DNA of 64,000 nt from Bacilli bacterium. Lineage in GTDB: Bacteria; Bacillota_I; Bacilli_A; RF39; UBA660. Every line of letters begins with the position of its first letter. Position 1 is the stretch's first letter. This document shows positions 37,564-58,593 of the stretch, one piece after another. The stretch lies in the NCBI GenBank assembly GCA_030602345.1, contig JAUVZX010000001.1, forward strand, positions 1,668 to 65,667, in the 5' to 3' direction. The notes under the pieces were generated by a model. It saw only the letters and a program-made list of their open reading frames with translations. It did no database searches and was not told where the DNA came from. The translations under genes and the position numbers were made by a program.

Positions 37564-37606
37564 ATCACCATTTTAGTAAACCAAAAGAAAAAGAGCATTT
37601 GCTCTT

Positions 37607-39511
37607 TTACCAATTTAATAATTGATCTTTAGTTAGCGCGGTAAATAATACTTCATTATCACCATAAGACCTACCATAAGCATGGAAAGTTCCATCACTT
37701 GTTATCACAAAGTACCATGGAGTTGAGTCTGTTCCTTCGTAATAATCAATAGTATTAATATTATTTAAATTCATTACTCTATAATATAACATTCCATAAG
37801 CGAAAATTGATTGATAATCTACAAAATAACGTCCGAAAGCTTCTTCAGTTAAAGTCATTACTAACATCATTTCTTCTCCAGTTAAACCTCCAAAACAATT
37901 AGCTACTATCTCTTCATTGCTTTGCTGAGTTAAGGCACACCTACCATAAGGTTCATACGCTTCGTGTTCAACAGGAAATCCCAATCCATTTTCCTGAATA
38001 TCCATCATGGCAGTCATAAATAAACTCTCTAAACTATTAAAATCAAAAGCCATTCCACTAATAATCATCGCATTATTAGAGTCCAATGTAATACCAATTA
38101 ATGACTTCTTATAATCATTGTCTGGAATTGGATTCATACTAGTTGAAATATTATAATGGCCTCTGTTTACAAAAAGATTTTTAATTCCTTCTTGAACAAC
38201 TTTAGTAGGAATATTATTCAACTCATCCCAATAAAATAATTGCCCGTTTGTTTTCAAACCATAATATAAAGGTTGGCTTCTTCCTAACACCGTATTTTCT
38301 ACTTTTTGAATGTCTTTTATACCATTCAAGGTTGCATTAGCAACTGGCGTATTATAGTATACTTGTGAACTTGGTAAGCCAAGTTGTCCTAAGTTGTTAT
38401 GTCCCCATACCATTACTGTTCCATTTTCTAAAACTGCATATGTACTAGCAATAAATGAATGAGGCCCTCCTTCAAATCCATCCCTTGCTGAAAAAGTAAA
38501 TATATCTCTAACGTTATTTAATCCTGGAATTAACTTAGGTGAATTCGCATAATTGTAAGTCCCTGTAACTAAACTGGTGTTTGTATGAGTATAATCTGCT
38601 GCTGCACCACCTATATTAGCACCCCATGCCATAACTGTTCCATTTTCTAAAATTGCATATGCAGATGTTTCACTAATTACTAGTTTTCTAACATTAGTTA
38701 ACCCAGGTATTGTTGTTAACGGTTCTGATGTATTTGAACTCTCGTAACCAATTAGATTAACTAATGTATATGCACCAGTAACTCCTCCAGATGATCCTTG
38801 TGACATTACTGTTCCGTCATTCATAAGATAAAATCTAGTACCACTGTGTACGTTTAGGTAATTGAAATCTCTAACACCTGTATTTAATAAAGTTGCATTT
38901 AATGTATCATAATTTAATTGATATAAGTTTCCATCTTTTGTTAAAACATAAATATTTTGAGCATTATATGGATATACGTCTTTAACATTAGCAATTGCTA
39001 TTTCTTGCCAAGCGCTAGTTGAAAAAGATTGCATATTTTTCTTAATAAATAATTCACCTGACTTCGAAACTAGCATGCCGAAGTTCCCCATCCAACTATA
39101 AGAAGATTTATATATTGCAAATCCTATTCCGTCTGCTTCGCAATCATCGCCATTTTCACTAACTATGACTTCGATAGAGTCATAATCTTTTATATAACAT
39201 CTGTCGTTATATACTGCAGCAACATAAATATTTTGATCTTCTCTAACCATTATTACTGCACTGTCTGGTCTTTTTCCATTTATATTAACAAATTCATATA
39301 TATTTGTTTCAAATGGAAATTCACCATCGCCTGTTATTTCTTGTAAGAAATACTCTTCGCCTGCTTTAACTAAATTTCTTACACTCGCGATATCTGCTCT
39401 TCTAGCAGCTTCATCGATCATTCTTAGTGCATTTGGTACTGTTATTAATGCTATTATTGCTAACACTACCATCACTACTAATAATTCGATTAATGTAAAA
39501 CCTTTTTTCAT
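37607..39511 (-). CDS. Prepilin-type N-terminal cleavage/methylation domain protein fused to RCC1-like repeat (beta-propeller) region; orphan pseudopilin-like protein
   Basis: MKKGFTLIELLVVMVVLAIIALI is a class III signal with the G|FTLIE prepilin peptidase site. Downstream there are repeated GTVMAWG, GTVMVWGHNNLGQLG and LKTNGQLFYWD RCC1-type repeats. 634 aa. Own promoter region and RBS AGGGGGA. Confidence 0.6.
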   Translation of the reverse strand: MKKGFTLIELLVVMVVLAIIALITVPNALRMIDEAARRADIASVRNLVKAGEEYFLQEITGDGEFPFETNIYEFVNINGKRPDSAVIMVREDQNIYVAAVYNDRCYIKDYDSIEVIVSENGDDCEADGIGFAIYKSSYSWMGNFGMLVSKSGELFIKKNMQSFSTSAWQEIAIANVKDVYPYNAQNIYVLTKDGNLYQLNYDTLNATLLNTGVRDFNYLNVHSGTRFYLMNDGTVMSQGSSGGVTGAYTLVNLIGYESSNTSEPLTTIPGLTNVRKLVISETSAYAILENGTVMAWGANIGGAAADYTHTNTSLVTGTYNYANSPKLIPGLNNVRDIFTFSARDGFEGGPHSFIASTYAVLENGTVMVWGHNNLGQLGLPSSQVYYNTPVANATLNGIKDIQKVENTVLGRSQPLYYGLKTNGQLFYWDELNNIPTKVVQEGIKNLFVNRGHYNISTSMNPIPDNDYKKSLIGITLDSNNAMIISGMAFDFNSLESLFMTAMMDIQENGLGFPVEHEAYEPYGRCALTQQSNEEIVANCFGGLTGEEMMLVMTLTEEAFGRYFVDYQSIFAYGMLYYRVMNLNNINTIDYYEGTDSTPWYFVITSDGTFHAYGRSYGDNEVLFTALTKDQLLNW

Positions 39512-39593
39512 TTAGTCCCCCTATTATTACAATAATACATTATTTTTTATTATATCTCAAGGTAATTAAGATTTTCGTGCTTTAATTTTGTAA

Positions 39594-39617
39594 ACAAAAA
39601 AAGAAGCCTGAGCTTCT
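39594..39617 (-). terminator. Rho-independent terminator after the KH-domain gene
   Basis: AGAAGC-CTGA-GCTTCT hairpin followed by a run of 7 T on the minus strand. Confidence 0.5.
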
Positions 39618-43252: not shown

Positions 43253-43338
43253 ATTTTCCTCCTTTCTTTTTTTGACTAACCAATTATACCAAAAAAAAGA
43301 ATATTAGTCCATAAATATAAAGACTAACATCAATATTA

Positions 43339-44826
43339 AATATTGTATAGCAAAAATTCTTAGAGTACCAAAACAAAAGAAAACGAAACAGTTAAATACT
43401 ATGAGTTATTGTATAGCAAAAATTCTTAGAGTACCAAAACATTCTTCCAACATATCTAAGGTTGGTGTGTGTTATTGTATAGCAAAAATTCTTAGAGTAC
43501 CAAAACTTACTTTCAAAATCATTACCATCTTTATTTGTTATTGTATAGCAAAAATTCTTAGAGTACCAAAACTGATAAGTCAAACATTCCGTCAAATGAC
43601 TGGTTATTGTATAGCAAAAATTCTTAGAGTACCAAAACACTTGCCTTTTTGTGTATAATTCATTAAAGGTTATTGTATAGCAAAAATTCTTAGAGTACCA
43701 AAACAAATTGCTAATGGTTCGGTTTTGCCTATCGGTTATTGTATAACAAAAATTCTTAGAGTACCAAAACTCTCCATTTAAAATAAAGGGATATATTATA
43801 GTTATTGTATAGCAAAAATTCTTAGAGTACCAAAACTTAACGAAGGTGGTTTATTTCCAACTAATGGTTATTGTATAGCAAAAATTCTTAGAGTACCAAA
43901 ACCAAATCTACGCTCTAATAAATAGTCAAAGTGTTATTGTATAGCAAAAATTCTTAGAGTACCAAAACCTTGCTTTAGTATCATACTTAGGCGCTAAAGT
44001 TATTGTATAGCAAAAATTCTTAGAGTACCAAAACATCTATTAATCATTGGTCTAGTTCTCCAAAGTTATTGTATAGCAAAAATTCTTAGAGTACCAAAAC
44101 CCTCTTGACCTTGATAGTTATCAAAAGGATGTTATTGTATAGCAAAAATTCTTAGAGTACCAAAACAGTGGCACACTTATGGGAAAAGATTTATTTGTTA
44201 TTGTATAGCAAAAATTCTTAGAGTACCAAAACCCTCATTATTTAATTATTTTAAACAAATGCGTTATTGTATAGCAAAAATTCTTAGAGTACCAAAACCT
44301 TGGATCTTTAACAGCATTGTCATTTATTGTTATTGTATAGCAAAAATTCTTAGAGTACCAAAACCGGTAGCATTAGGATATCACAATTTGAAAAGTTATT
44401 GTATAGCAAAAATTCTTAGAGTACCAAAACTTAATTCACATATATTTGTAAATATATTATGTTATTGTATAGCAAAAATTCTTAGAGTACCAAAACGATG
44501 AACAACCTGAGTTATATGCTAGATATGTTATTGTATAGCAAAAATTCTTAGAGTACCAAAACGACGATTAAGCAATATTCAAGAGTTTACTGGTTATTGT
44601 ATAGCAAAAATTCTTAGAGTACCAAAACGTAGACCGTTAAAGTTTAAATCGGTTGAAGGTTATTGTATAGCAAAAATTCTTAGAGTACCAAAACAATGTT
44701 TGCCCTCCTTAATTATTTCTTGTAGTTATTGTATAGCAAAAATTCTTAGAGTACCAAAACCAACAGACACATCAACGAATCGAGCTGCATGTTATTGTAT
44801 AGCAAAAATTCTTAGAGTACCAAAAC
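43339..44826 (-). CRISPR. Type II-A CRISPR array: 23 repeats of 36 nt (GTTTTGGTACTCTAAGAATTTTTGCTATACAATAAC in the transcribed orientation) and 22 spacers of 30 nt
   Basis: I enumerated the repeats by hand. All spacers are exactly 30 nt. The leader-distal repeat (43339-43374) carries 2 substitutions. The repeat at 43735-43770 carries one G-to-A variant. Leader and cas genes lie on the high-coordinate side, so transcription is on the minus strand. Confidence 0.97.
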
Positions 44827-44886
44827 CTCAAACTTATTTTATCATATTGATGATATATTGTCATCTAAGTTTGATTTTTAAAGTGT
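44827..44886 (-). promoter_or_regulatory. CRISPR leader with putative promoter (-35 TGACAA, 16-bp spacer, -10 TAAAAT) about 12 nt upstream of the first repeat
   Basis: 60-bp AT-rich segment between the csn2 stop and the newest repeat. Hexamers read on the minus strand. Confidence 0.45.
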
Positions 44887-45729
44887 TTATAAGTTTTTTT
44901 CTAGCGACATTATTCTATCATTTGAATCTCCAATTATATACTGAGAAATCAGTTTTTTTAATTCTTCTATTTCACAGTGAAAGGGAAGATTCATTCCTAT
45001 TTCATAATTTAAGTTATATTCATCGTAAACATCAATTATTTTATTATTATAAATACAATAATCCTTCATGTCAGATGGAGTGTGATTAGTTTCAGTGGAA
45101 ACAAAAACTTTAATATTTTCATTTTCCAAAAAATTTATAGCATTTATAATTTTAGGTGTTAAAGAGCCAATGTATGTAATAAAAATATTTTTGTCAGTTG
45201 TTAAAGACAGTTTTTCGATTAGATTCAGTTGGAATATTATTAAATCATCATATTCTAAGTCATATATATTACATTCTAAACCCATTTTTTTCATTTTACA
45301 TTTAAGCATTTTATATAATTCTAATATATCTATTTCATTAAATGATAAGTTTAATTTTAATTCTTCAGATAAAATAATATTTTTATTGTAATTTGACGTT
45401 TCTTTGGTTAAAACATCACTGATATTTAACATTTCTTCATCTTCAGAATTTTCTAAATATTTTAGCAGAAGCGTTTTAGCCCCTAATTTTATTTCATTTT
45501 CTATGTTAAAATATGGGTTTAAAATAAAGGATAAAGTGTTTCTACTATTTATTTTTTGTTCATTTAAATAAATTGATTCTACTCCTTCTCTTAATGAAAA
45601 TTCACTAAAATCCGAGTTTGAACATATTTGATGAATTTTTTGAAAAACTGAAAACATTTTTGTTCCGTTTTTTTCAAAAAAAATTTTTTTCTTATCTATA
45701 GAGAAGGATAATTCATTATTACCCTTCAT
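44887..45729 (-). CDS. csn2: Csn2-family CRISPR-associated protein (type II-A marker)
   Basis: 280 aa, directly between cas2 and the leader. Local similarity to Csn2 (EYDDLIIFQLNLIEKL and IFITYIGSL resemble the S. pyogenes Csn2 EYDEITILELIKALG and LLIFVNSGAF segments). Confidence 0.6.
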   Translation of the reverse strand: MKGNNELSFSIDKKKIFFEKNGTKMFSVFQKIHQICSNSDFSEFSLREGVESIYLNEQKINSRNTLSFILNPYFNIENEIKLGAKTLLLKYLENSEDEEMLNISDVLTKETSNYNKNIILSEELKLNLSFNEIDILELYKMLKCKMKKMGLECNIYDLEYDDLIIFQLNLIEKLSLTTDKNIFITYIGSLTPKIINAINFLENENIKVFVSTETNHTPSDMKDYCIYNNKIIDVYDEYNLNYEIGMNLPFHCEIEELKKLISQYIIGDSNDRIMSLEKNL

Positions 45730-45760
45730 ATATACAAATTTGTCTATTTTATTTCCTCCT

Positions 45761-46096
45761 TTAAAATAACATAAATGGGTTAGGTGTAATTTTTTCTTCT
45801 AGTTTGCTTTTATTTCCAACTAAAATTTCCATTCTGGTATATTGCTTTTCAGTAACTAACATTATTCTTATAGATCCTTTTTTAGGAACAAAATTTTTCA
45901 AAGTTGATATATGTTTCTGAGCAGAGTCTCTATTTGAAAATATTTTAGAATAAACAGAATATTGAATCATCATATATCCGCTTTTTATTAATCTTTTTCT
46001 AAATAGACTATATATTCTTCTTTCTTCCTCAGTTACGACAGGTAAATCAAAAAATAATATTATTCTCATAAAAACATCATTCATAAATTTTAACAC
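45761..46096 (-). CDS. cas2: CRISPR-associated endoribonuclease Cas2
   Basis: About 100-aa Cas2 (MRIILFFDLPVVTEEERRIY...). The true start is probably at 46069 (MRIIL); the track's form overlaps the cas1 end. Confidence 0.85.
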   Translation of the reverse strand: MLKFMNDVFMRIILFFDLPVVTEEERRIYSLFRKRLIKSGYMMIQYSVYSKIFSNRDSAQKHISTLKNFVPKKGSIRIMLVTEKQYTRMEILVGNKSKLEEKITPNPFMLF

Positions 46097-46970
46097 CAGG
46101 AAATTTTATTTCATCAATATTTCCTGTTTCAAAAAAACTAATTATACTATCAACCATTATTATAATAGCGTTATTAATTGTATGTATCTTTCCATCAATC
46201 ATGACCTTTTTAGTTGTTTGAGCTACTAGTTCAACCCTAATATTCCTCGTGAAAACATCATTTATTTTTAAATTTTTTAATACATACTGATCAACAATAG
46301 GCCTAAAAACTTCAATAACGTCATCAGCTAAGTTGAAAGGGTTTGAAGGTCCTCTATGAAAAATCCCGAAATGTGGGTTTAATCCTCTAGCCACTAAAGC
46401 TCTACATATTTGAGATCTCAAGATACTATAGCCATAATTTAATGCTGAATTTCTTACATCATCAGATTTTCTTAAGAAATCATCACCAAATAATTCTCTG
46501 AAATATATTTTTGCAGCTAGTCCTTCCCTATTTGTTTTGTCATTAAGTTCAACTTCTTGATAATATTTATCTAAAATTGAAATATACTCTGGATTAGCAT
46601 CAAAATATTCCATTACATTTTTTTGGTTTTTAATTTTAGCCTTTACAATTTCTTGCCAAATATACATTTTGCTATTTTCTTCCCATTCTAATTGTTTGCG
46701 AAGTTGAAAAGATGAATTATAATTACCAGAATAAGGAAATATTAATGCTGATGGTAAATGAAAAGGATCACAAATAACAATGTTAATATTATATTCCATA
46801 CACTTGCTTATTAAAGATGCTGACATAACTAAACTATGATTATCGATTATAATAGAATTTACGTCACTCAAAGGAATAGTTATTTTTTCTATTCCCTTTG
46901 TTATTTTCAAATTATCTAAATATAAATTTAAATAATCTGAACTTTCAATATAAATTATTCTCCAACTCAT
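46077..46970 (-). CDS. cas1: CRISPR-associated endonuclease Cas1 (type II)
   Basis: 297 aa with NSALNYGYSIL and GLNPHFGIFHRG motifs. Confidence 0.9.
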   Translation of the reverse strand: MSWRIIYIESSDYLNLYLDNLKITKGIEKITIPLSDVNSIIIDNHSLVMSASLISKCMEYNINIVICDPFHLPSALIFPYSGNYNSSFQLRKQLEWEENSKMYIWQEIVKAKIKNQKNVMEYFDANPEYISILDKYYQEVELNDKTNREGLAAKIYFRELFGDDFLRKSDDVRNSALNYGYSILRSQICRALVARGLNPHFGIFHRGPSNPFNLADDVIEVFRPIVDQYVLKNLKINDVFTRNIRVELVAQTTKKVMIDGKIHTINNAIIIMVDSIISFFETGNIDEIKFPGVKIYE

Positions 46971-47075
46971 AAAAACAAAAAGAGACTCTAAAGAGTCTCG
47001 ATTTCGGCATATTGCCTTATTTTGATAGTTCCTAAGAACTTTTGCTATACAGTAGTCCGTCGACTACAAAATAAT
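46971..47075 (-). ncRNA. tracrRNA (anti-repeat, nexus and terminator) between cas9 and cas1
   Basis: On the minus strand, UGUAUAGCAAAAGUUCUUAGG is complementary to crRNA repeat nt 11-31 (21 bp including 2 G-U pairs). UCAAAAU pairs with repeat nt 1-7, forming the lower stem after an internal bulge. There is a nexus-like AAGGCAAUAUGCC hairpin. The terminator is GAGACUCUUUAGAGUCUC followed by UUUUUGUUUUU. Confidence 0.7.
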
Positions 47076-47104
47076 TATAACATTTTTCGTTAAAATAATC
47101 AAGT

Positions 47105-50100
47105 CTAATTTAATAGTAATTTAGGTTCATTTTCAAAAGGAAGTTTATACATATTTCCCAATACATCAAAAGCCATTTTTTGAATATTAATGTTTTTCTT
47201 TATATTTATATATGGTTGTGGTTGAACTTTACCATTTTTATAAACTTTTTTCTCATTTGGGATTTTGTATGAAATGATATTAGATTCCAAGTTTTGAACT
47301 CCTGAATACAAAACTACTCCTTTATAGGTTGACTCTTCTACTTTTCCTACAAATAAAGGTTCATTTTTGTACACACTAAACAAGAATTTACAATTATTAT
47401 TGATCCCTCTTTTTTGCAACATGTCTTTATAATCATTTTCGTCAATATAATATTTTCCGTCTTTGTTTTTAATTTCATGTTGATAGATTTGAATTATTAT
47501 ATTTTCATTTGTTTCGTTTCTATATATGTCTATTCTATAGGGATTTAAAGATAGTAACACTACTTTATTTTCAGTATTATATTTATGACTAATGTCTAAA
47601 TGGTTTCCAAGTTTACTTTCATAATATTTAACTGTCTCTATTTTTGGACCATTTCCTTTTTTAGATTTTTTTCTTATAAAATCTCCATGCTTTAATTTAT
47701 ATTCTAAAAAGGGATTTTCAGCATACGAATATTCTTGTGTTATTTTTTTTAATAAATTAAAACTTTCGACATCGTATTTAAACATAAACAAATTTTTTAG
47801 TTTATCTAAATTGTCTTCTTTAAACCAATTAGCAACAGCATTATCATCATATATATTTTTTTTCGATATTATATATTCTTTTTGATCTTCCGGCTTGATT
47901 CTAACACTATATATAGTTTGATCACTCAAACCTTTGTTAAATTTTTTATCGACTTTCTGAGAAAATTTTACATTTAATTTATCTAAATTATTAATGAAAT
48001 TTAAATATTGACTATCATTTTTAATTTTGATATCTTCTGGTTTTATTATTTCACCAGTTTCGTCATTTACTAAAAGCTTATCTACTCTCGATATTTTTAT
48101 TAAATCATCGAAGAAGTTAAGTTTTTTAATTCCCGCAATCAACAAAGCATCTATAGCGTGATGAGAATTGTCTTCTTCTCTTACTTTCGGAAGATTACTT
48201 TGTTTCCTAAAATAATTAGTAACTATTCCTTTAATCGTATAGACTTTTGTATCAATATTATTTTGGTTATAATATTCAGAAAGTAAATTTAAAATATTTC
48301 TTGAGGCATATCGAGTATCTACTAAATTTCTATTAATAAAATCTTTTCTAACGCTAAATTTATTTATATCCGATTCATTTAAATAATTTTTCATCTTTCG
48401 ATAGTCTATTTTGCCATTTTTATTTAAGTTTATAACTCTATTTTTAAATTGATCATATTTACCAATTTTACTTAAATATTGATATGGGCTTTTTTGACCT
48501 TTTTCTTGATTTTCCTCTCTATAAACTAGGCATTTATTTTTGAAAGAATCATCTAAAGATATAGAAAGAGGTATTATATGATCTATTTCATATATATATG
48601 GATTTTCAATTAAATCATTTAAGTTTATTGATTTGCCAGAGTATATACAAACACCGTCTTGCTCTAAATATAATCTTACTTTTTGTTTGATTTCAATATT
48701 AATTTTCCCTTTATATTTTTTACTTATTTCATCTAGAACTTGTAAATTTATCTCTTCATTATTTTTTTGAAGTTTATTTATTCGGTTTTTTTGTTCTAAA
48801 CTATTCTTATCTCTAGGCATTTCTATTACTATACTATCTAATTCACCATATTTTTTTCTTACTGCATTAATTATTTTAATGGTTTCATTTTGAGATCTCC
48901 TCACAACGGGAGATAATACATCTTCAATATTAGAAGGTATAGTTTTACCAATAACGTCCTTATTTAATTGTTTATAGCCATTTAGGCTGATGATTTGCAT
49001 TTGGTTGTTATTTGTTTCAAGTAAATCCGGAAGCATCTCATAAATCGCTCTAAACGACAAAGAATGATATGTAGAAAATCCATTTAAAGTTGAAATTCTT
49101 TCTATGACATTTTGATCGAAGATTTTTATATCTATATTTTTTATTTTTTTAATAGCTTCTATTCTTTCATTTTGACCTTTTTTCATAGTCAATATCTCTG
49201 AGATTTCATCTATTATTTTTTTGTCATTTAATATTTTTTCGCTAAACCCTTCTTTTTTCACTAAATCAATAAAAACTTTATATCCATCAAACTCTGTTAA
49301 TATGGGCTCACTCTTTTTATTTAATCTAAAGCCAGATATTTCTTCTAAAGGCAAATCTAAAAACTTAGCAAGCTCTTTGGGAGTTATTTTTGCTTTTTTA
49401 TCTATAAAATTATAAATTATTTCTTCTTTTTGATTTTGAGAAAGCTGTTGATCTCCGTCAAACTTCAAATTATTTAGATCATTTAAAAAATTAAAAAGCT
49501 GTGCTGAATAAGATTTTTGAGGTGCTCTTTTTTCTTCTAAATATATAGAACATTTCCCTCTCATTTTTTCAATCAAATCGATGGGTTCTGCACCTATATA
49601 AGCATATCTTCCGTAAGGAGTTGGAGAATTAGGACCACCAGGTCCTTCATAATATTTTCTTTTTCTTTTTACTATTTCGATTATTTCTTCTGTCAATTCA
49701 TTAGAAATTTCATTTGTTAAACATAATTGTTTTATTTCTTTTATATAATCATCTGTAGTAAAAATATTTTGATTTCCTTTTAATTTTCCATCATTTAATC
49801 TCTTTAATTGCAGTTCACACACAAAATAATTATTTTGTGATAAATATTTTTGGTTTTCCGATAATGATTTTTTAGAAGTTTCGCTATCTTTTATCTCTTG
49901 TTCATTTTCAGGAATTATATCACTATCTACCAATCCTCTTTTTTTAGTAATATGTAATATGCAATTTGCAAACTCGTTATTATTAAGTTTGTGTTTTAAG
50001 CCTCTTGTTCTTAATTCATATATGTTTTTAGAATATTGAAATTCTTCATCAATATATCCATTTCTTTTCAACAAGTCTTTCATCGCTTCTATTCGAGTTC

Positions 50101-50281
50101 TTTTTCTTCTAATTAACCTTCTTCCAGAACGAAAGCCTCTTCTTTCTTCATTGTTTTTTGCGGTTCCCTCTTCAAAAAGTCTAACTCCACAGTCTACTAC
50201 TTCAGATGTTTCAAGATCGATCAATCCCCATCCAACAGATGCAATTCCAACGTCCAAACCAAGCACTAATTTTTTCTGCAT
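47105..50281 (-). CDS. cas9: CRISPR-associated endonuclease Cas9, compact type II-A ortholog (1058 aa, SaCas9-like)
   Basis: RuvC-I LGLDVGIASVGWGL, arginine-rich bridge helix, HNH (DIDHIIPLSISLDDSFKNK), RuvC-III HHAIDALLIA. The N-terminus aligns closely with Staphylococcus aureus Cas9. Promoter TATAAT and RBS GGAGG lie in the 50282-50323 interval. Confidence 0.95.
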   Translation of the reverse strand: MQKKLVLGLDVGIASVGWGLIDLETSEVVDCGVRLFEEGTAKNNEERRGFRSGRRLIRRKRTRIEAMKDLLKRNGYIDEEFQYSKNIYELRTRGLKHKLNNNEFANCILHITKKRGLVDSDIIPENEQEIKDSETSKKSLSENQKYLSQNNYFVCELQLKRLNDGKLKGNQNIFTTDDYIKEIKQLCLTNEISNELTEEIIEIVKRKRKYYEGPGGPNSPTPYGRYAYIGAEPIDLIEKMRGKCSIYLEEKRAPQKSYSAQLFNFLNDLNNLKFDGDQQLSQNQKEEIIYNFIDKKAKITPKELAKFLDLPLEEISGFRLNKKSEPILTEFDGYKVFIDLVKKEGFSEKILNDKKIIDEISEILTMKKGQNERIEAIKKIKNIDIKIFDQNVIERISTLNGFSTYHSLSFRAIYEMLPDLLETNNNQMQIISLNGYKQLNKDVIGKTIPSNIEDVLSPVVRRSQNETIKIINAVRKKYGELDSIVIEMPRDKNSLEQKNRINKLQKNNEEINLQVLDEISKKYKGKINIEIKQKVRLYLEQDGVCIYSGKSINLNDLIENPYIYEIDHIIPLSISLDDSFKNKCLVYREENQEKGQKSPYQYLSKIGKYDQFKNRVINLNKNGKIDYRKMKNYLNESDINKFSVRKDFINRNLVDTRYASRNILNLLSEYYNQNNIDTKVYTIKGIVTNYFRKQSNLPKVREEDNSHHAIDALLIAGIKKLNFFDDLIKISRVDKLLVNDETGEIIKPEDIKIKNDSQYLNFINNLDKLNVKFSQKVDKKFNKGLSDQTIYSVRIKPEDQKEYIISKKNIYDDNAVANWFKEDNLDKLKNLFMFKYDVESFNLLKKITQEYSYAENPFLEYKLKHGDFIRKKSKKGNGPKIETVKYYESKLGNHLDISHKYNTENKVVLLSLNPYRIDIYRNETNENIIIQIYQHEIKNKDGKYYIDENDYKDMLQKRGINNNCKFLFSVYKNEPLFVGKVEESTYKGVVLYSGVQNLESNIISYKIPNEKKVYKNGKVQPQPYINIKKNINIQKMAFDVLGNMYKLPFENEPKLLLN

Positions 50282-56838: not shown

Positions 56839-58593
56839 TTATGATAAAACTGCTTTTATTCTTCTTATTCCTGCACTTGACGCTTCTTCTTTAATTATTT
56901 TAAACGTTCCTAGTTCTTTAGTGTTATTTACATGAGGTCCACCACAAAATTCTTTTGAAATATCTCCTATAAAATATACACTTACTACATCACCATATTT
57001 TTCAATAAATGCTGCTTCAGCTCCTATTTTCAAGGCTTTTTCTTTCGGCATTTCTTTAAAAATAACTGGTAATTCTTGTTTTATATAATCATTTACCAAT
57101 TGTTCTGTCTTAGCAATTTCTTCATCTGTCATCTTAGTATCATTAGGAAAATCAAATCTTAATCTCTCATCAGTTATATTACTTCCTTTTTGACAAACAT
57201 GCGCTCCTAAAACTTCCTTTAAAGCGGCATTAAGTAAATGGGTTGCCGTATGATATTTAACGTTCATATCGCTTGTCGATGATAATCCACCTTTAAATTT
57301 ATGTTCTGCACCCATTCTTGATTTTTCTTGGTGTTCCCTAAACTTTAACTTAAATCCTTCTGTATCAACTTCTAAATTGTATTCATTCGCTAATTCTTCC
57401 GTTAATTCAATTGGAAAACCATAAGTATCATATAGCTTAAATGCATTTGTTGCATCAACTGTCTTTTCAACTGTTTTAATTATTTTTTCAAATTCTTTTA
57501 AACCTTTATCTAAAGTCTTACTAAATTTAGTTTGTTCTTGCTTAATAACTTCTTTAATTATTTCCTTGTTTTTAGATAATTCTTCATAATATCCTTGATA
57601 CATTTCAATAATCATGTCTGCTAAAATTAAAGCGAAATCACTTGTTATATCAATATTTAATTTTTTAGCATATCTTAACATTCTTCTAATTAATCTTCTT
57701 AAAATATATCCTTGATCAGTATTAGAAGGTCTAATATTAGCATTATCTCCCGCGATTATTACAATTGCTCTAATATGATCTGCAATAATTCTCATTGCTT
57801 TTTTATTATCACCTTCATAAGGTAATTTAGTCATTTCTTCAATTTTATTAATAATTGGCAACCATATTGAAGTTTGATAATTGTCTTTAACCCCTTCTAA
57901 AACAGAAGTTATTCTTTCTACTCCCATTCCTGTATCAACATTTTGTGATACTAAAGGCGTAAAGTTCCCATTTTCATCTTTATTATATTGCATGAAAACA
58001 TTATTCCATATTTCGACCCATCTTTTATCTTCTGGATCAAAAGATACTGGAGTTTCATCATTACTTCTAAAATAAAATATTTCAGTGTCTGGTCCACATG
58101 GTCCTGTTTCTCCCGCAGGTCCCCACCAGTTGTCTTCTTCTCCTAAATAAGCAATTCTTTCTTGTTTAATGCCCAATTCTTTCCAAATTGAAGCGCTTTC
58201 CTCATCTTTTTTAACAAATTCATTGCCACGAAAGACAGTAACTGCTAATTTATCCACGGGTATATTTAAAGTTTTAGTTAAAAACTCAAAACTCCACTCA
58301 ATCGATTCTTTTTTAAAATAGTCTCCTAAAGACCAATTTCCTAACATTTCAAAGAAAGTATGATGTGTCTCATCACCAATTGATTCTAAATCAGTAAGTC
58401 TAAAACATTTTTGATAATTAACTAATCTTTTTCCTAATGGATGAGGTTGTCCCATTAAATAAGGAACTAAAGGTTGCATTCCTGCTGTATTAAAAAGACT
58501 AGTCGGATCATTTTCTGGTATGATCGAGGCACTATTCAACTTTTTGTGTTCTTTACTAATAAAAAAATCAATATATTTATTTTTTACTTCCAT
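56839..58593 (-). CDS. alaS: Alanine--tRNA ligase, compact form lacking the C-terminal C-Ala/DHHA1 domain
   Basis: N-terminus matches AlaRS (NDPTSLFNTAGMQP, HHTFFEMLGNWSLGDYF). Editing-domain HTATHLL...C. The protein ends at IRRIKAVLS, with ireB immediately downstream. 584 aa versus about 870 typical. Confidence 0.75.
   Translation of the reverse strand: MEVKNKYIDFFISKEHKKLNSASIIPENDPTSLFNTAGMQPLVPYLMGQPHPLGKRLVNYQKCFRLTDLESIGDETHHTFFEMLGNWSLGDYFKKESIEWSFEFLTKTLNIPVDKLAVTVFRGNEFVKKDEESASIWKELGIKQERIAYLGEEDNWWGPAGETGPCGPDTEIFYFRSNDETPVSFDPEDKRWVEIWNNVFMQYNKDENGNFTPLVSQNVDTGMGVERITSVLEGVKDNYQTSIWLPIINKIEEMTKLPYEGDNKKAMRIIADHIRAIVIIAGDNANIRPSNTDQGYILRRLIRRMLRYAKKLNIDITSDFALILADMIIEMYQGYYEELSKNKEIIKEVIKQEQTKFSKTLDKGLKEFEKIIKTVEKTVDATNAFKLYDTYGFPIELTEELANEYNLEVDTEGFKLKFREHQEKSRMGAEHKFKGGLSSTSDMNVKYHTATHLLNAALKEVLGAHVCQKGSNITDERLRFDFPNDTKMTDEEIAKTEQLVNDYIKQELPVIFKEMPKEKALKIGAEAAFIEKYGDVVSVYFIGDISKEFCGGPHVNNTKELGTFKIIKEEASSAGIRRIKAVLS

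What the first reader, a model, noticed from the sequence alone, without database searches (positions are those of the whole stretch)
37607..39511. Orphan prepilin-type protein with RCC1-like beta-propeller repeats in place of rimM-trmD
The 634-aa ORF starts with a textbook type IV prepilin / pseudopilin signal (MKKGFTLIELLVV, peptidase site G|F). The rest of the protein contains several RCC1-type repeats (GTVMAWGANIGG, GTVMVWGHNNLGQLGL, LKTNGQLFYWD). Cysteine pairs suggest an extracellular disulfide-stabilised domain. The window contains no pilus assembly genes (no PilB/PilC/PilD or ComG). The gene has its own promoter and terminator context. It sits between cdsA and the rpsP-ylqC pair, where Firmicutes normally carry rimM-trmD-rplS. 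A pilin-anchored propeller could be an adhesin or surface-display module exported through a T4P or competence pseudopilus system encoded elsewhere.
Basis: partly seen in the sequence, partly recalled or inferred. Interest (0 to 1): 0.55.

Follow-up and report, generated by a model that had tools for sequence, protein, structure and literature searches.

The report
Pilin fused to RCC1 propeller
This gene encodes a type IV pilin whose small filament-building module is fused to a large RCC1-type beta-propeller, most likely a binding head carried on the pili of an uncultured low-GC gut bacterium. It is a rare example of an already described design (modular pilins), not a new kind of system.

Summary
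The 634-aa ORF at 37607-39511 (- strand) has a textbook class III (prepilin) signal, MKKG|FTLIE. N_methyl, TIGR02532, RCC1_2 and RCC1 all score above their curated cut-offs. AlphaFold models a confident pilin module (residues 1-125) and an RCC1-like propeller (~142-430); residues 430-634 are poorly modelled.

The protein is a modular type IV pilin. Its ~125-aa carrier module, including a conserved Cys105/Cys124 pair, defines a family of at least 598 clusters in uncultured gut Bacilli, Mycoplasmatota and Erysipelotrichia MAGs. About 80% of the best 150 carry cargo, in 28 cargo groups; only 3 of 150 carry RCC1.

The gene is unlinked from other pilus genes but not an orphan. The same strain encodes five more prepilins, three of them small and major-pilin-like, with alpha1 segments kept 82-88% identical by selection on the protein.

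No PilB, PilC or PilD lies in the ~95 kb of this strain that I could read. Related MAGs have them next to such pilins.

The architecture is already catalogued (Raynaud 2021, Dataset S1). It also has an experimental analogue, PilX2 of Saccharibacteria TM7x, an RCC1-propeller pilin needed for host binding.

Verdict: new member of a known kind, modest interest.

The parts
39602..39617 (-). Terminator-like hairpin plus T-run right after the ylqC (KH-domain gene) stop; separates the rpsP-ylqC unit from the pilin gene
   Evidence: 6-bp stem, 3 GC pairs, tail TTTTTTGTTT; sequence read
39532..39560 (-). Promoter-like -35/-10 pair, TTGAGA-17-TATTAT
   Evidence: 10 of 12 matches. Consensus match only; such sites are not enriched in this AT-rich region
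39516..39522 (-). Ribosome-binding site AGGGGGA, 4 nt before the ATG
   Evidence: The same AGGGGGA precedes the related pilin gene P0003
37607..39511 (-). Coding sequence of the 634-aa modular type IV pilin (stop codon included)
39500..39511 (-). Leader peptide M1-K-K-G4; predicted prepilin-peptidase cleavage after Gly4, leaving Phe5 as the mature N-terminus with Glu at mature position 5
   Evidence: N_methyl, TIGR02532; invariant K3, F5, T6, E9, L10, L11, P26 in family alignment A1
39332..39499 (-). Alpha1 helix (residues 5-60), the filament-core assembly interface
   Evidence: AF2 helix at 7-60 with pLDDT ~95. 82-88% identical to alpha1N of the strain's small pilins, with about half of the identical residues using different codons
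39137..39511 (-). Pilin (carrier) module, residues 1-125: alpha1 plus a 4-stranded sheet (84-118) plus the Cys105/Cys124 loop
39089..39136 (-). Linker, residues 126-141, low confidence, between the pilin module and the cargo
   Evidence: pLDDT < 50 at 126-141
38162..39088 (-). RCC1-like beta-propeller, residues ~142-450, with six blade motifs at 148, 190, 229, 287, 360 and 419
37757..38161 (-). Residues 451-585: one further blade-like motif (476), then a predicted helical insertion (helices 494-581) holding Cys525/Cys539. Low-confidence model; the only weak similarity is to P0002
37610..37756 (-). Residues 586-634: terminal blade-like segment (WYFVITSDGTFHAYG) that may close the propeller
   Evidence: (strands 588-621, low pLDDT)
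37589..37608 (-). Terminator-like hairpin plus T-run starting at the stop codon
   Evidence: 8-bp stem, tail TCTTTTGG. A separate promoter-like site for cdsA follows at 37580-37552

Best explanation
The gene encodes a modular (bimodular) type IV pilin.

Proposed mechanism:
1. The precursor inserts into the membrane through its class III signal (inferred).
2. A prepilin peptidase encoded elsewhere cuts after Gly4 and methylates Phe5 (inferred).
3. The 125-residue pilin module packs, through its alpha1 helix, into a type IV filament built mainly from the strain's small pilins of 102-113 aa (inferred).
4. The pilin sits at the tip, because a ~500-residue cargo cannot be accommodated along the shaft (inferred by analogy with S. 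sanguinis PilB).
5. The RCC1-like propeller is thereby held away from the cell as a ligand-binding (adhesin) head. The ligand is unknown.

The strain carries at least two further cargo pilins, one with CE2_N-type beta-sandwiches and one with a Laminin_G lectin fold. The pilus would therefore display a small set of interchangeable binding heads.

Shown here: the signal motif, the pilin-module and propeller folds (by prediction), family membership, the paralogues, and selection on alpha1.
For: Pilin identity:
- Class III signal and N_methyl/TIGR02532 scores above their cut-offs.
- AF2 gives a 54-residue alpha1 plus a 4-stranded sheet at pLDDT ~90.
- The family profile matches solved type IV pilins: Geobacter pilin 5e-12, PilA 8tum 2e-10 over positions 5-117, S. 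sanguinis PilE1 3e-10, gonococcal pilin 2e-7 over positions 5-111.
- A conserved Cys pair sits at the end of the module.

Cargo:
- RCC1_2 and RCC1 score above their cut-offs.
- The top Foldseek hits are RCC1, HERC2 RLDs and UVR8, at E ~1e-9 and TM ~0.45-0.52 normalised to the target.

Modular family:
- 55 of 110 homologues share only the pilin module and carry other cargo.
- 598 clusters match the module at E <= 1e-30. Of the best 150, 121 exceed 200 aa, and their cargo falls into 28 groups.

Same strain:
- It also encodes P0005, a Laminin_G pilin and three small pilins.
- L082, from the same SRA sample, is 100% identical to the window over 13,073 bp.
- P0005 and P0001 are each listed on an NCBI contig of 220,992 bp.
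- Alpha1N is 82-88% identical among the paralogues, yet 12-16 of ~28 identical residues use different codons. That points to purifying selection, not gene conversion.

Machinery in the lineage:
- T2SSF plus Peptidase_A24 lie beside a pilin in L041.
- A T2SSE ATPase lies beside pilins in L034.
- L034 is syntenic with the strain's own small-pilin cluster (nfo 55%, PBP 46%, efp 51% identity).

Literature:
- Modular pilins are defined, and RCC1 architectures listed, in PMC8179133.
- The RCC1-propeller pilin PilX2 is needed for host binding in TM7x (PMC11623550).
Against: - No PilB, PilC or PilD lies in the window (64 kb), in L001 (22 kb) or in the 9 kb beyond the right edge. In L001 the ATPase present in the syntenic L034 cluster is missing from that position.
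- I could not read the rest of the genome, and a PilB search saturated.
- The propeller reaches only 50.7 of the 150 bits needed for the whole-domain Pfam model.
- Residues 430-634 are modelled at pLDDT < 50.
- No ligand, cleavage, methylation or piliation has been observed.
Confidence: 0.7

Rival explanations
1. Pseudopilus or cell-surface display rather than a long pilus. The prepilin signal is processed, but the protein is presented on a short Com- or T2SS-like pseudopilus, or stays anchored at the membrane surface in the manner of archaeal class III signal 'bindosome' proteins. The propeller would then act close to the cell wall.
For: - The best NCBIfam names are ComGC and GspG, though both are far below their cut-offs.
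- The only machinery seen in relatives is minimal: PilC plus PilD without an adjacent ATPase in L041, and a single ATPase in L034.
- No PilT-like retraction ATPase or PilMNO was seen near any low-GC relative.
Against: - ComGC scores 34 against a cut-off of 75, and GspG 31.6 against 88.85, so it is not a member of either equivalog.
- The L034 ATPase groups with proteins that sources name PilB or GspE.
- The strain has three small pilins with matching alpha1, which suggests a real filament.
Confidence: 0.17
2. Evolutionary relic. The strain has lost its pilus machinery, so the protein is an unprocessed, membrane-anchored surface protein or is non-functional.
For: - No machinery in ~95 kb of the strain.
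- The ATPase is missing from the position it holds in the syntenic L034 cluster.
Against: - All six prepilin genes keep intact G-1/F+1/E+5 motifs.
- Alpha1 is under purifying selection.
- The ORF is intact and has an RBS and terminators.
- A 49%-identical orthologue exists in another genome, with its module 87% identical.
Confidence: 0.08
3. Not a pilin at all. The N-terminus is an ordinary Sec signal anchor, and the resemblance to prepilins is coincidental.
For: None specific. Short hydrophobic N-termini can mimic each other.
Against: - Two curated models score above their cut-offs.
- K3, F5, T6, E9, L10, L11 and P26 are invariant across the family.
- Profile matches to solved pilins extend beyond alpha1.
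- The predicted pilin fold is confident.
Confidence: 0.02

Closest known systems
Modular type IV pilins as defined by Raynaud et al. 2021 (PMC8179133); prototypes are Streptococcus sanguinis PilB (pilin + vWA) and PilC (pilin + lectin)
   Same: - An N-terminal IPR012902/N_methyl pilin module joined by a short linker to a bulky domain not specific to pilus biology.
- A monoderm host.
- A predicted tip adhesin role.
- The strain also has a Laminin_G (concanavalin-like) pilin, as S. sanguinis PilC is.
- The IPR012902 + PF13540/IPR000408 (RCC1) architectures are already listed in that paper's Dataset S1.
   Different: - The cargo is an RCC1-like propeller of ~500 residues, larger than vWA, with a helical insertion.
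- The gene is monocistronic beside rpsP-ylqC, not in a pil locus.
- No biochemical data exist.
PilX2 of Nanosynbacter lyticus TM7x (Saccharibacteria), PMC11623550
   Same: - A minor pilin with a C-terminal seven-bladed beta-propeller made of RCC1 repeats.
- Its deletion lowers host binding (4.6% against 10.6%), and it is proposed as the tip adhesin of a type IV pilus.
- The host has a small genome and is host-associated.
   Different: - PilX2 lies inside a T4P locus and is reported to lack a predicted PilD signal. The window protein has a canonical signal and lies outside any pilus locus.
- The phylum is different.
PilY1/PilC tip adhesins of Pseudomonas and Neisseria
   Same: A beta-propeller presented at the tip of a type IV pilus for adhesion.
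   Different: - PilY1 is not a pilin. It docks on a minor-pilin complex.
- Its propeller (IPR008707) is a different family. No such Pfam hit was found at E <= 10.
RCC1-like domains (RCC1, HERC2 RLDs, UVR8)
   Same: Repeat signature and predicted fold. These are the top Foldseek hits; PF13540 and PF00415 score above their cut-offs.
   Different: - Only ~13-17% identity.
- Irregular blades and a ~100-residue helical insertion with a Cys pair.
- An extracellular setting.
- No evidence of any GEF-like activity.
ComGC and GspG major (pseudo)pilins
   Same: Short leader, G|F cleavage site, Glu5 and a hydrophobic alpha1N. These are the best-named NCBIfam hits.
   Different: - Scores are far below the equivalog cut-offs.
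- Those proteins are ~100-140 aa and carry no cargo.

Membership tests
Type IV pilin (class III signal peptide proteins) | Short basic leader ending in Gly, then Phe/Met(+1), Glu(+5) and a ~20-residue hydrophobic stretch (PF07963 / TIGR02532) | tested here: met
   MKKG|FTLIELLVVMVVLAIIALITVP. PF07963 scores 29.0 against 21.2 and TIGR02532 scores 32.3 against 16.3
Type IV pilin (class III signal peptide proteins) | 'Lollipop' fold: a ~53-residue alpha1 packed on an antiparallel beta-sheet | tested here: inconclusive
Type IV pilin (class III signal peptide proteins) | C-terminal disulfide-bonded loop (D-region) in the pilin domain | tested here: met
   Cys105/Cys124 ('CYIKDY...C') is conserved in family alignments A1 and A3, and in 98 of the 150 best family representatives. 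Formation of the bond itself is not testable here
Type IV pilin (class III signal peptide proteins) | A prepilin peptidase (A24) in the same genome | not testable with these tools
   None in ~95 kb of the strain. Present in relative L041 (PF01478 plus PF06750). The rest of the genome could not be read
Type IV pilin (class III signal peptide proteins) | Assembly ATPase and platform protein in the same genome, and incorporation into a filament | not testable with these tools
   None in the window, L001 or L082. The PilB search saturated. Relatives have T2SSE (L034) and T2SSF (L041)
Modular pilin (Raynaud et al. 2021) | An N-terminal IPR012902 pilin module plus an extra, independently folding domain not specific to pilus biology, joined by a linker | tested here: met
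   Module 1-125, low-confidence linker 126-141, RCC1-like cargo from ~142. The same module occurs with 28 unrelated cargo groups. Definition from PMC8179133
RCC1-like beta-propeller | RCC1 repeat signatures (PF00415 / PF13540) | tested here: met
   PF13540 scores 35 against 22 and PF00415 scores 23.4 against 21.7
RCC1-like beta-propeller | A complete seven-bladed propeller (whole-domain model PF25390; closed ring) | tested here: inconclusive
   PF25390 scores 50.7 against 150. Foldseek hits to RCC1 and HERC2 have TM ~0.5. Six blades are modelled confidently. Two more blade motifs (476, 603) flank a helical insertion, all at pLDDT < 50
Competence pilin ComGC / T2SS pseudopilin GspG | Equivalog-level HMM score | tested here: not met
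   NF040999 scores 34.1 against 75 and TIGR01710 scores 31.6 against 88.85. The matches cover only residues 2-58
PilY1/PilC-type tip adhesin | PilY1/Neisseria PilC beta-propeller domain; the protein is not itself a pilin | tested here: not met
   No such Pfam family at E <= 10, and the protein has its own pilin module

The most novel reading that the evidence does not exclude
In a clade of uncultured, low-GC, small-genome gut Bacilli and Erysipelotrichia, one dedicated 'carrier' pilin module has been fused combinatorially to dozens of unrelated binding domains: RCC1, BspA-type LRR, Laminin_G, CE2_N-like sandwiches, Big_2 and many unannotated ones.

These genes are scattered as single transcription units beside core translation and transcription operons (rpsP-ylqC, infC-rpmI-rplT, rpoC/rpsL), rather than sitting in pilus loci.

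If so, a single pilus would display a constitutively expressed, swappable adhesin repertoire. This would be central to how these organisms attach to hosts or to other microbes, comparable to PilX2-dependent episymbiosis in Saccharibacteria.
Probability: 0.25. Interest if true: 0.55.

Novelty: new member of a known kind. Interest (0 to 1): 0.3.

Why it matters
It adds a well-resolved example to the modular-pilin concept, from a poorly known group of uncultured gut Bacilli: canonical signal, confident pilin module, RCC1 cargo.

It also shows that this lineage uses one conserved carrier module for many cargoes. About 80% of the closest 150 family representatives carry one, and these fall into 28 cargo groups.

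For people studying how small-genome gut bacteria attach to hosts or partners, the cargo set (RCC1, lectin-like, LRR) is a short list of candidate adhesins. The RCC1 case has a direct experimental analogue in Saccharibacteria.

It does not reveal a new mechanism.

Tried and rejected
1. Finding the strain's own machinery.
- Exact look-ups of the target protein, P0002 and dtd failed.
- The DnaK look-up extended the right flank by 9 kb, with no machinery.
- A search with the PilB-type ATPase of syntenic relative L034 saturated: 8000 of 8000 candidates, 120 listed, none on contigs of 220,992, 69,960 or 55,000 bp. This was a dead end.

3. Hypothesis that the rpsP-ylqC slot is a conserved site where cargo is swapped on the same module. 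Rejected: P0003, the closest different-cargo relative, lies between rpoC and rpsL. L046 has a prepilin in the rpsP-KH slot, but that prepilin is similar only in alpha1.

5. A dedicated search with residues 451-634 returned nothing, not even the identical P0001. It failed its positive control and is uninformative. A local phmmer against 373 held sequences found only the self-hit. Pairwise BLASTP against P0002 gave a marginal match around the Cys pair (E = 0.009).

6. Horizontal-transfer signal. The gene's GC3 is 0.19 against 0.11-0.17 for its neighbours, which is too small a difference to interpret.

7. Independent prepilin-RCC1 fusion P0031. Its context shows no pilus genes, only ~35 small unannotated ORFs.
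Full report
**Observation**

The ORF at 37607-39511 (- strand) is real: 634 aa, an ATG start, and a stop codon two codons upstream of the start.

Curated profile HMMs confirm both domain claims:
- PF07963 N_methyl: 29.0 bits, cut-off 21.2.
- TIGR02532: 32.3 bits, cut-off 16.3.
- PF13540 RCC1_2: 35 bits, cut-off 22.
- PF00415 RCC1: 23.4 bits, cut-off 21.7.
- PF25390, the whole-domain RCC1-like model: 50.7 bits, cut-off 150, so not reached.

The names ComGC and GspG appear in NCBIfam only through the first ~58 residues, far below their equivalog cut-offs.

**Anatomy**

AlphaFold2 on a 29-row alignment gives three regions:
- A very confident N-terminal module: helix 7-60 and four strands at 84-118, pLDDT ~90-96.
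- A low-confidence linker at 126-141.
- A largely confident beta-rich region at ~145-430.

Residues 430-634 stay below pLDDT 50: helices at 494-581, then strands at 588-621.

Foldseek of the whole model against the PDB returns RCC1, HERC2 RCC1-like domains and UVR8 as top hits, at E ~1e-9 and TM ~0.45-0.52 normalised to the target.

The blade hairpin motif (x-D/N-G-x-h...) occurs at 148, 190, 229, 287, 360, 419, 476 and 603. The last two flank the helical segment with C525/C539. I therefore call it an RCC1-like propeller with six well-supported blades and one or two more around a ~100-residue helical insertion. Whether the ring has seven or eight blades is open.

- Geobacter pilin, 5e-12.
- PilA 8tum, 2e-10, over positions 5-117.
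- S. sanguinis PilE1, 3e-10.
- Gonococcal pilin, 2e-7, over positions 5-111.
- GspG and PpdD.

**Family**

The identical protein (P0001) is on an NCBI contig of 220,992 bp. The only near full-length relative is P0002 (49% identity over 71% of the query; pilin module 87% identical).

Of the 110 homologues, about half are plain RCC1 proteins that match only residues ~210-425. The other 55 share only the first ~125 residues and continue into unrelated domains: BspA-type LRR, CE2_N, Big_2, DUF6273, FNIP and many unannotated ones. The shared module includes the invariant K3, F5, T6, E9, L10, L11 and P26, and a 'CY.K.Y...C' cysteine pair (C105/C124 in the query) at its end.

An exhaustive profile search of 1.84 billion representatives found 598 clusters matching the whole module at E <= 1e-30. 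Among the best 150:
- All have the prepilin motif.
- 121 are longer than 200 aa (median 360, maximum 1419).
- The 111 longer than 250 aa fall into 28 cargo similarity groups.
- Only three (P0001, P0002, P0288) carry an RCC1-like cargo.

The module is therefore mostly used as a carrier, and RCC1 is a rare cargo for it. Other, unrelated pilin modules are also fused to RCC1 (P0006, P0031), so this fusion has arisen more than once.

**Genomic setting**

The gene has its own signals on the - strand:
- A hairpin plus T-run directly after ylqC (39617-39602).
- A -35/-10-like pair (39560-39532).
- A strong RBS, AGGGGGA.
- A hairpin plus T-run starting at its stop codon (37608-37589).
- After these, a separate promoter-like site for cdsA.

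These are consensus matches. Terminator-like sites are enriched over shuffles (4 against 1.1 +/- 1.3). Promoter-like sites are not.

The rest of the window is housekeeping genes (smc, relA, tkt, lexA, ftsAZ, murBG, copA, rseP, cdsA, rpsP, miaB, rnj, tig, greA, alaS, frr, dnaJK-grpE-hrcA) plus a type II-A CRISPR-Cas locus. There is no PilB, PilC or PilD homologue by eye, by motif scan or by phmmer with probes from related loci.

**Not an orphan**

P0005 is a 749-aa paralogue with the same module and CE2_N-type cargo. It is listed on an NCBI contig of the same length (220,992 bp) and on a Logan contig from sample SRR14872665 (L001). A second Logan contig from that sample (L082) is 100% identical to the window over 13,073 bp. 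L001 is therefore the same strain.

L001 holds five prepilin genes:
- P0005, between an HD-domain gene and infC-rpmI-rplT.
- A 316-aa Laminin_G pilin.
- Three small pilins of 108, 113 and 102 aa.

The first 33 mature-region residues of the window protein are 82-88% identical to those of P0005 and the small pilins. Yet 12-16 of the ~28 identical residues use different codons. That is the signature of purifying selection on the alpha1 assembly interface rather than recent gene conversion. It is my main argument that the proteins still function together.

**Machinery**

I could read about 95 kb of the strain (window, L001, and 9 kb beyond the right edge) and found no machinery.

At lineage level the machinery exists:
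- In L041 (low-GC Bacillales MAG), a T2SSF platform protein and an A24 prepilin peptidase precede a 121-aa pilin.
- In L034 (Erysipelotrichia MAG), a T2SSE ATPase (432 bits) lies beside two minor and four ~170-aa pilins.
- The L034 cluster is followed by nfo, a 684-aa PBP and efp, in the same order as after the strain's small pilins in L001 (55%, 46% and 51% identity). The strain's small-pilin cluster is therefore positionally equivalent to a bona fide T4P cluster, but the ATPase is not at that position in this strain.
- In L028, a cargo pilin of this type sits inside a Tad-like cluster.

Most low-GC relatives, like the window, show lone pilin genes among housekeeping genes.

**Mechanism proposed**

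Shown:
- A canonical class III signal.
- A confidently predicted pilin module.
- An RCC1-like cargo.
- Membership of a cargo-carrying pilin family.
- Co-occurrence with small pilins whose alpha1 is under the same constraint.

Inferred:
- Cleavage after Gly4 and N-methylation of Phe5 by a peptidase encoded elsewhere.
- Incorporation through alpha1 into a filament made mainly of the small pilins.
- A tip location, because of the ~500-residue cargo.
- An adhesive role for the propeller.

The inference follows the structural and functional work on S. sanguinis PilB (PMC8179133) and the TM7x minor pilin PilX2. PilX2 carries a seven-bladed RCC1-repeat propeller, and its deletion halves host binding (PMC11623550). 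The ligand is unknown.

**Comparison and novelty**

By the definition of Raynaud et al. (an IPR012902 module plus a domain not specific to pilus biology) the protein is a modular pilin. That paper's Dataset S1 already lists several single-protein architectures combining IPR012902 with PF13540/IPR000408.

It is not a ComGC or GspG equivalog, nor a PilY1-type adhesin.

The new elements are minor:
- This particular carrier family and its breadth of cargo.
- The scattering of its genes beside core operons: rpsP-ylqC here and in L046, infC-rpmI-rplT for P0005, rpoC/rpsL for P0003.
- The helical, Cys-containing insertion in the propeller. P0002 shares it weakly. P0288 has a similar acidic helical insert at a different place.

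I rate it a new member of a known kind, with interest 0.3.

**Caveats**

- The last homology search failed its self-hit control.
- No experimental data exist for this protein.

Noticed in passing
window 43336-44892 and 44887-50281: A CRISPR array with a 66-nt period (about 24 repeats) lies directly next to csn2-cas2-cas1-cas9, a type II-A locus. The short ORFs listed on both strands at 43392-45089 are translation artefacts of the repeats.
   Followed up: partly
L046 9406-10435: Another uncultured Bacilli MAG has rpsP, then the KH gene, then a 144-aa prepilin gene, followed by der. This is the same slot as the window gene (rpsP 60% and KH 44% identical). The prepilin resembles the window protein only in alpha1.
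   Followed up: partly
L001 10001-15781 (same strain): Five further prepilin genes: P0005 (749 aa, CE2_N-type cargo) before infC-rpmI-rplT, then a Laminin_G pilin and three small pilins after rplT. The cluster is syntenic with a T4P cluster of an Erysipelotrichia MAG (L034), but without that cluster's ATPase.
   Followed up: yes
L028 79-7164: In an Erysipelotrichaceae MAG, a 341-aa T4a-type cargo pilin sits between a CpaF/TadA-like ATPase and TadB/C-like genes, with TadZ-like and TadE-like genes upstream. This is an unusual mix of pilin type and Tad-type machinery.
   Followed up: no
L041 6302-10360: The order is PilC-like platform, A24 peptidase, a 478-aa polytopic membrane protein with no Pfam hit, then a 121-aa pilin. 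No assembly ATPase lies within 10 kb. The membrane protein could be a pilin-modifying enzyme.
   Followed up: no
L083 265-1860: P0003, the closest different-cargo relative (LRR_5 cargo, module 58% identical), lies between the 3' end of rpoC and rpsL-rpsG-fusA-tuf. It uses the same AGGGGGA ribosome-binding site.
   Followed up: partly
L085 10001-15775: The LRR-cargo pilin P0007 lies ~700 nt from genes with dockerin and cohesin domains, in a low-GC (0.26) contig.
   Followed up: no
L084 1-17496: P0031, an independent prepilin-RCC1 fusion of 1033 aa, lies among ~35 mostly same-strand small ORFs with no Pfam hit, in a contig of GC 0.40. This could be phage-like or from an unusual organism.
   Followed up: no
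window 56839-58593: The alanyl-tRNA synthetase gene encodes only 584 aa (tRNA-synt_2c plus tRNA_SAD). That is much shorter than the ~870 aa I recall as typical for bacterial AlaRS (from memory, not checked here).
   Followed up: no
L082 1-954 (just beyond the window's right end): An 847-aa protein with Bact_surface_Ig-like and Laminin_G_3 domains, which is another candidate surface adhesin of the strain.
   Followed up: no
P0288 residues ~205-290, versus window protein residues ~490-585: The third RCC1-cargo member of the family has an acidic helical insertion after its first blade. The window protein and P0002 have theirs before the last blade. This may be the same structural site in a closed ring.
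   Followed up: no
(tool behaviour): the search for homologous proteins with residues 451-634 returned no hit at all, not even the identical database protein P0001. Negative results from that word-indexed search on short or unusual queries should not be trusted.
   Followed up: yes
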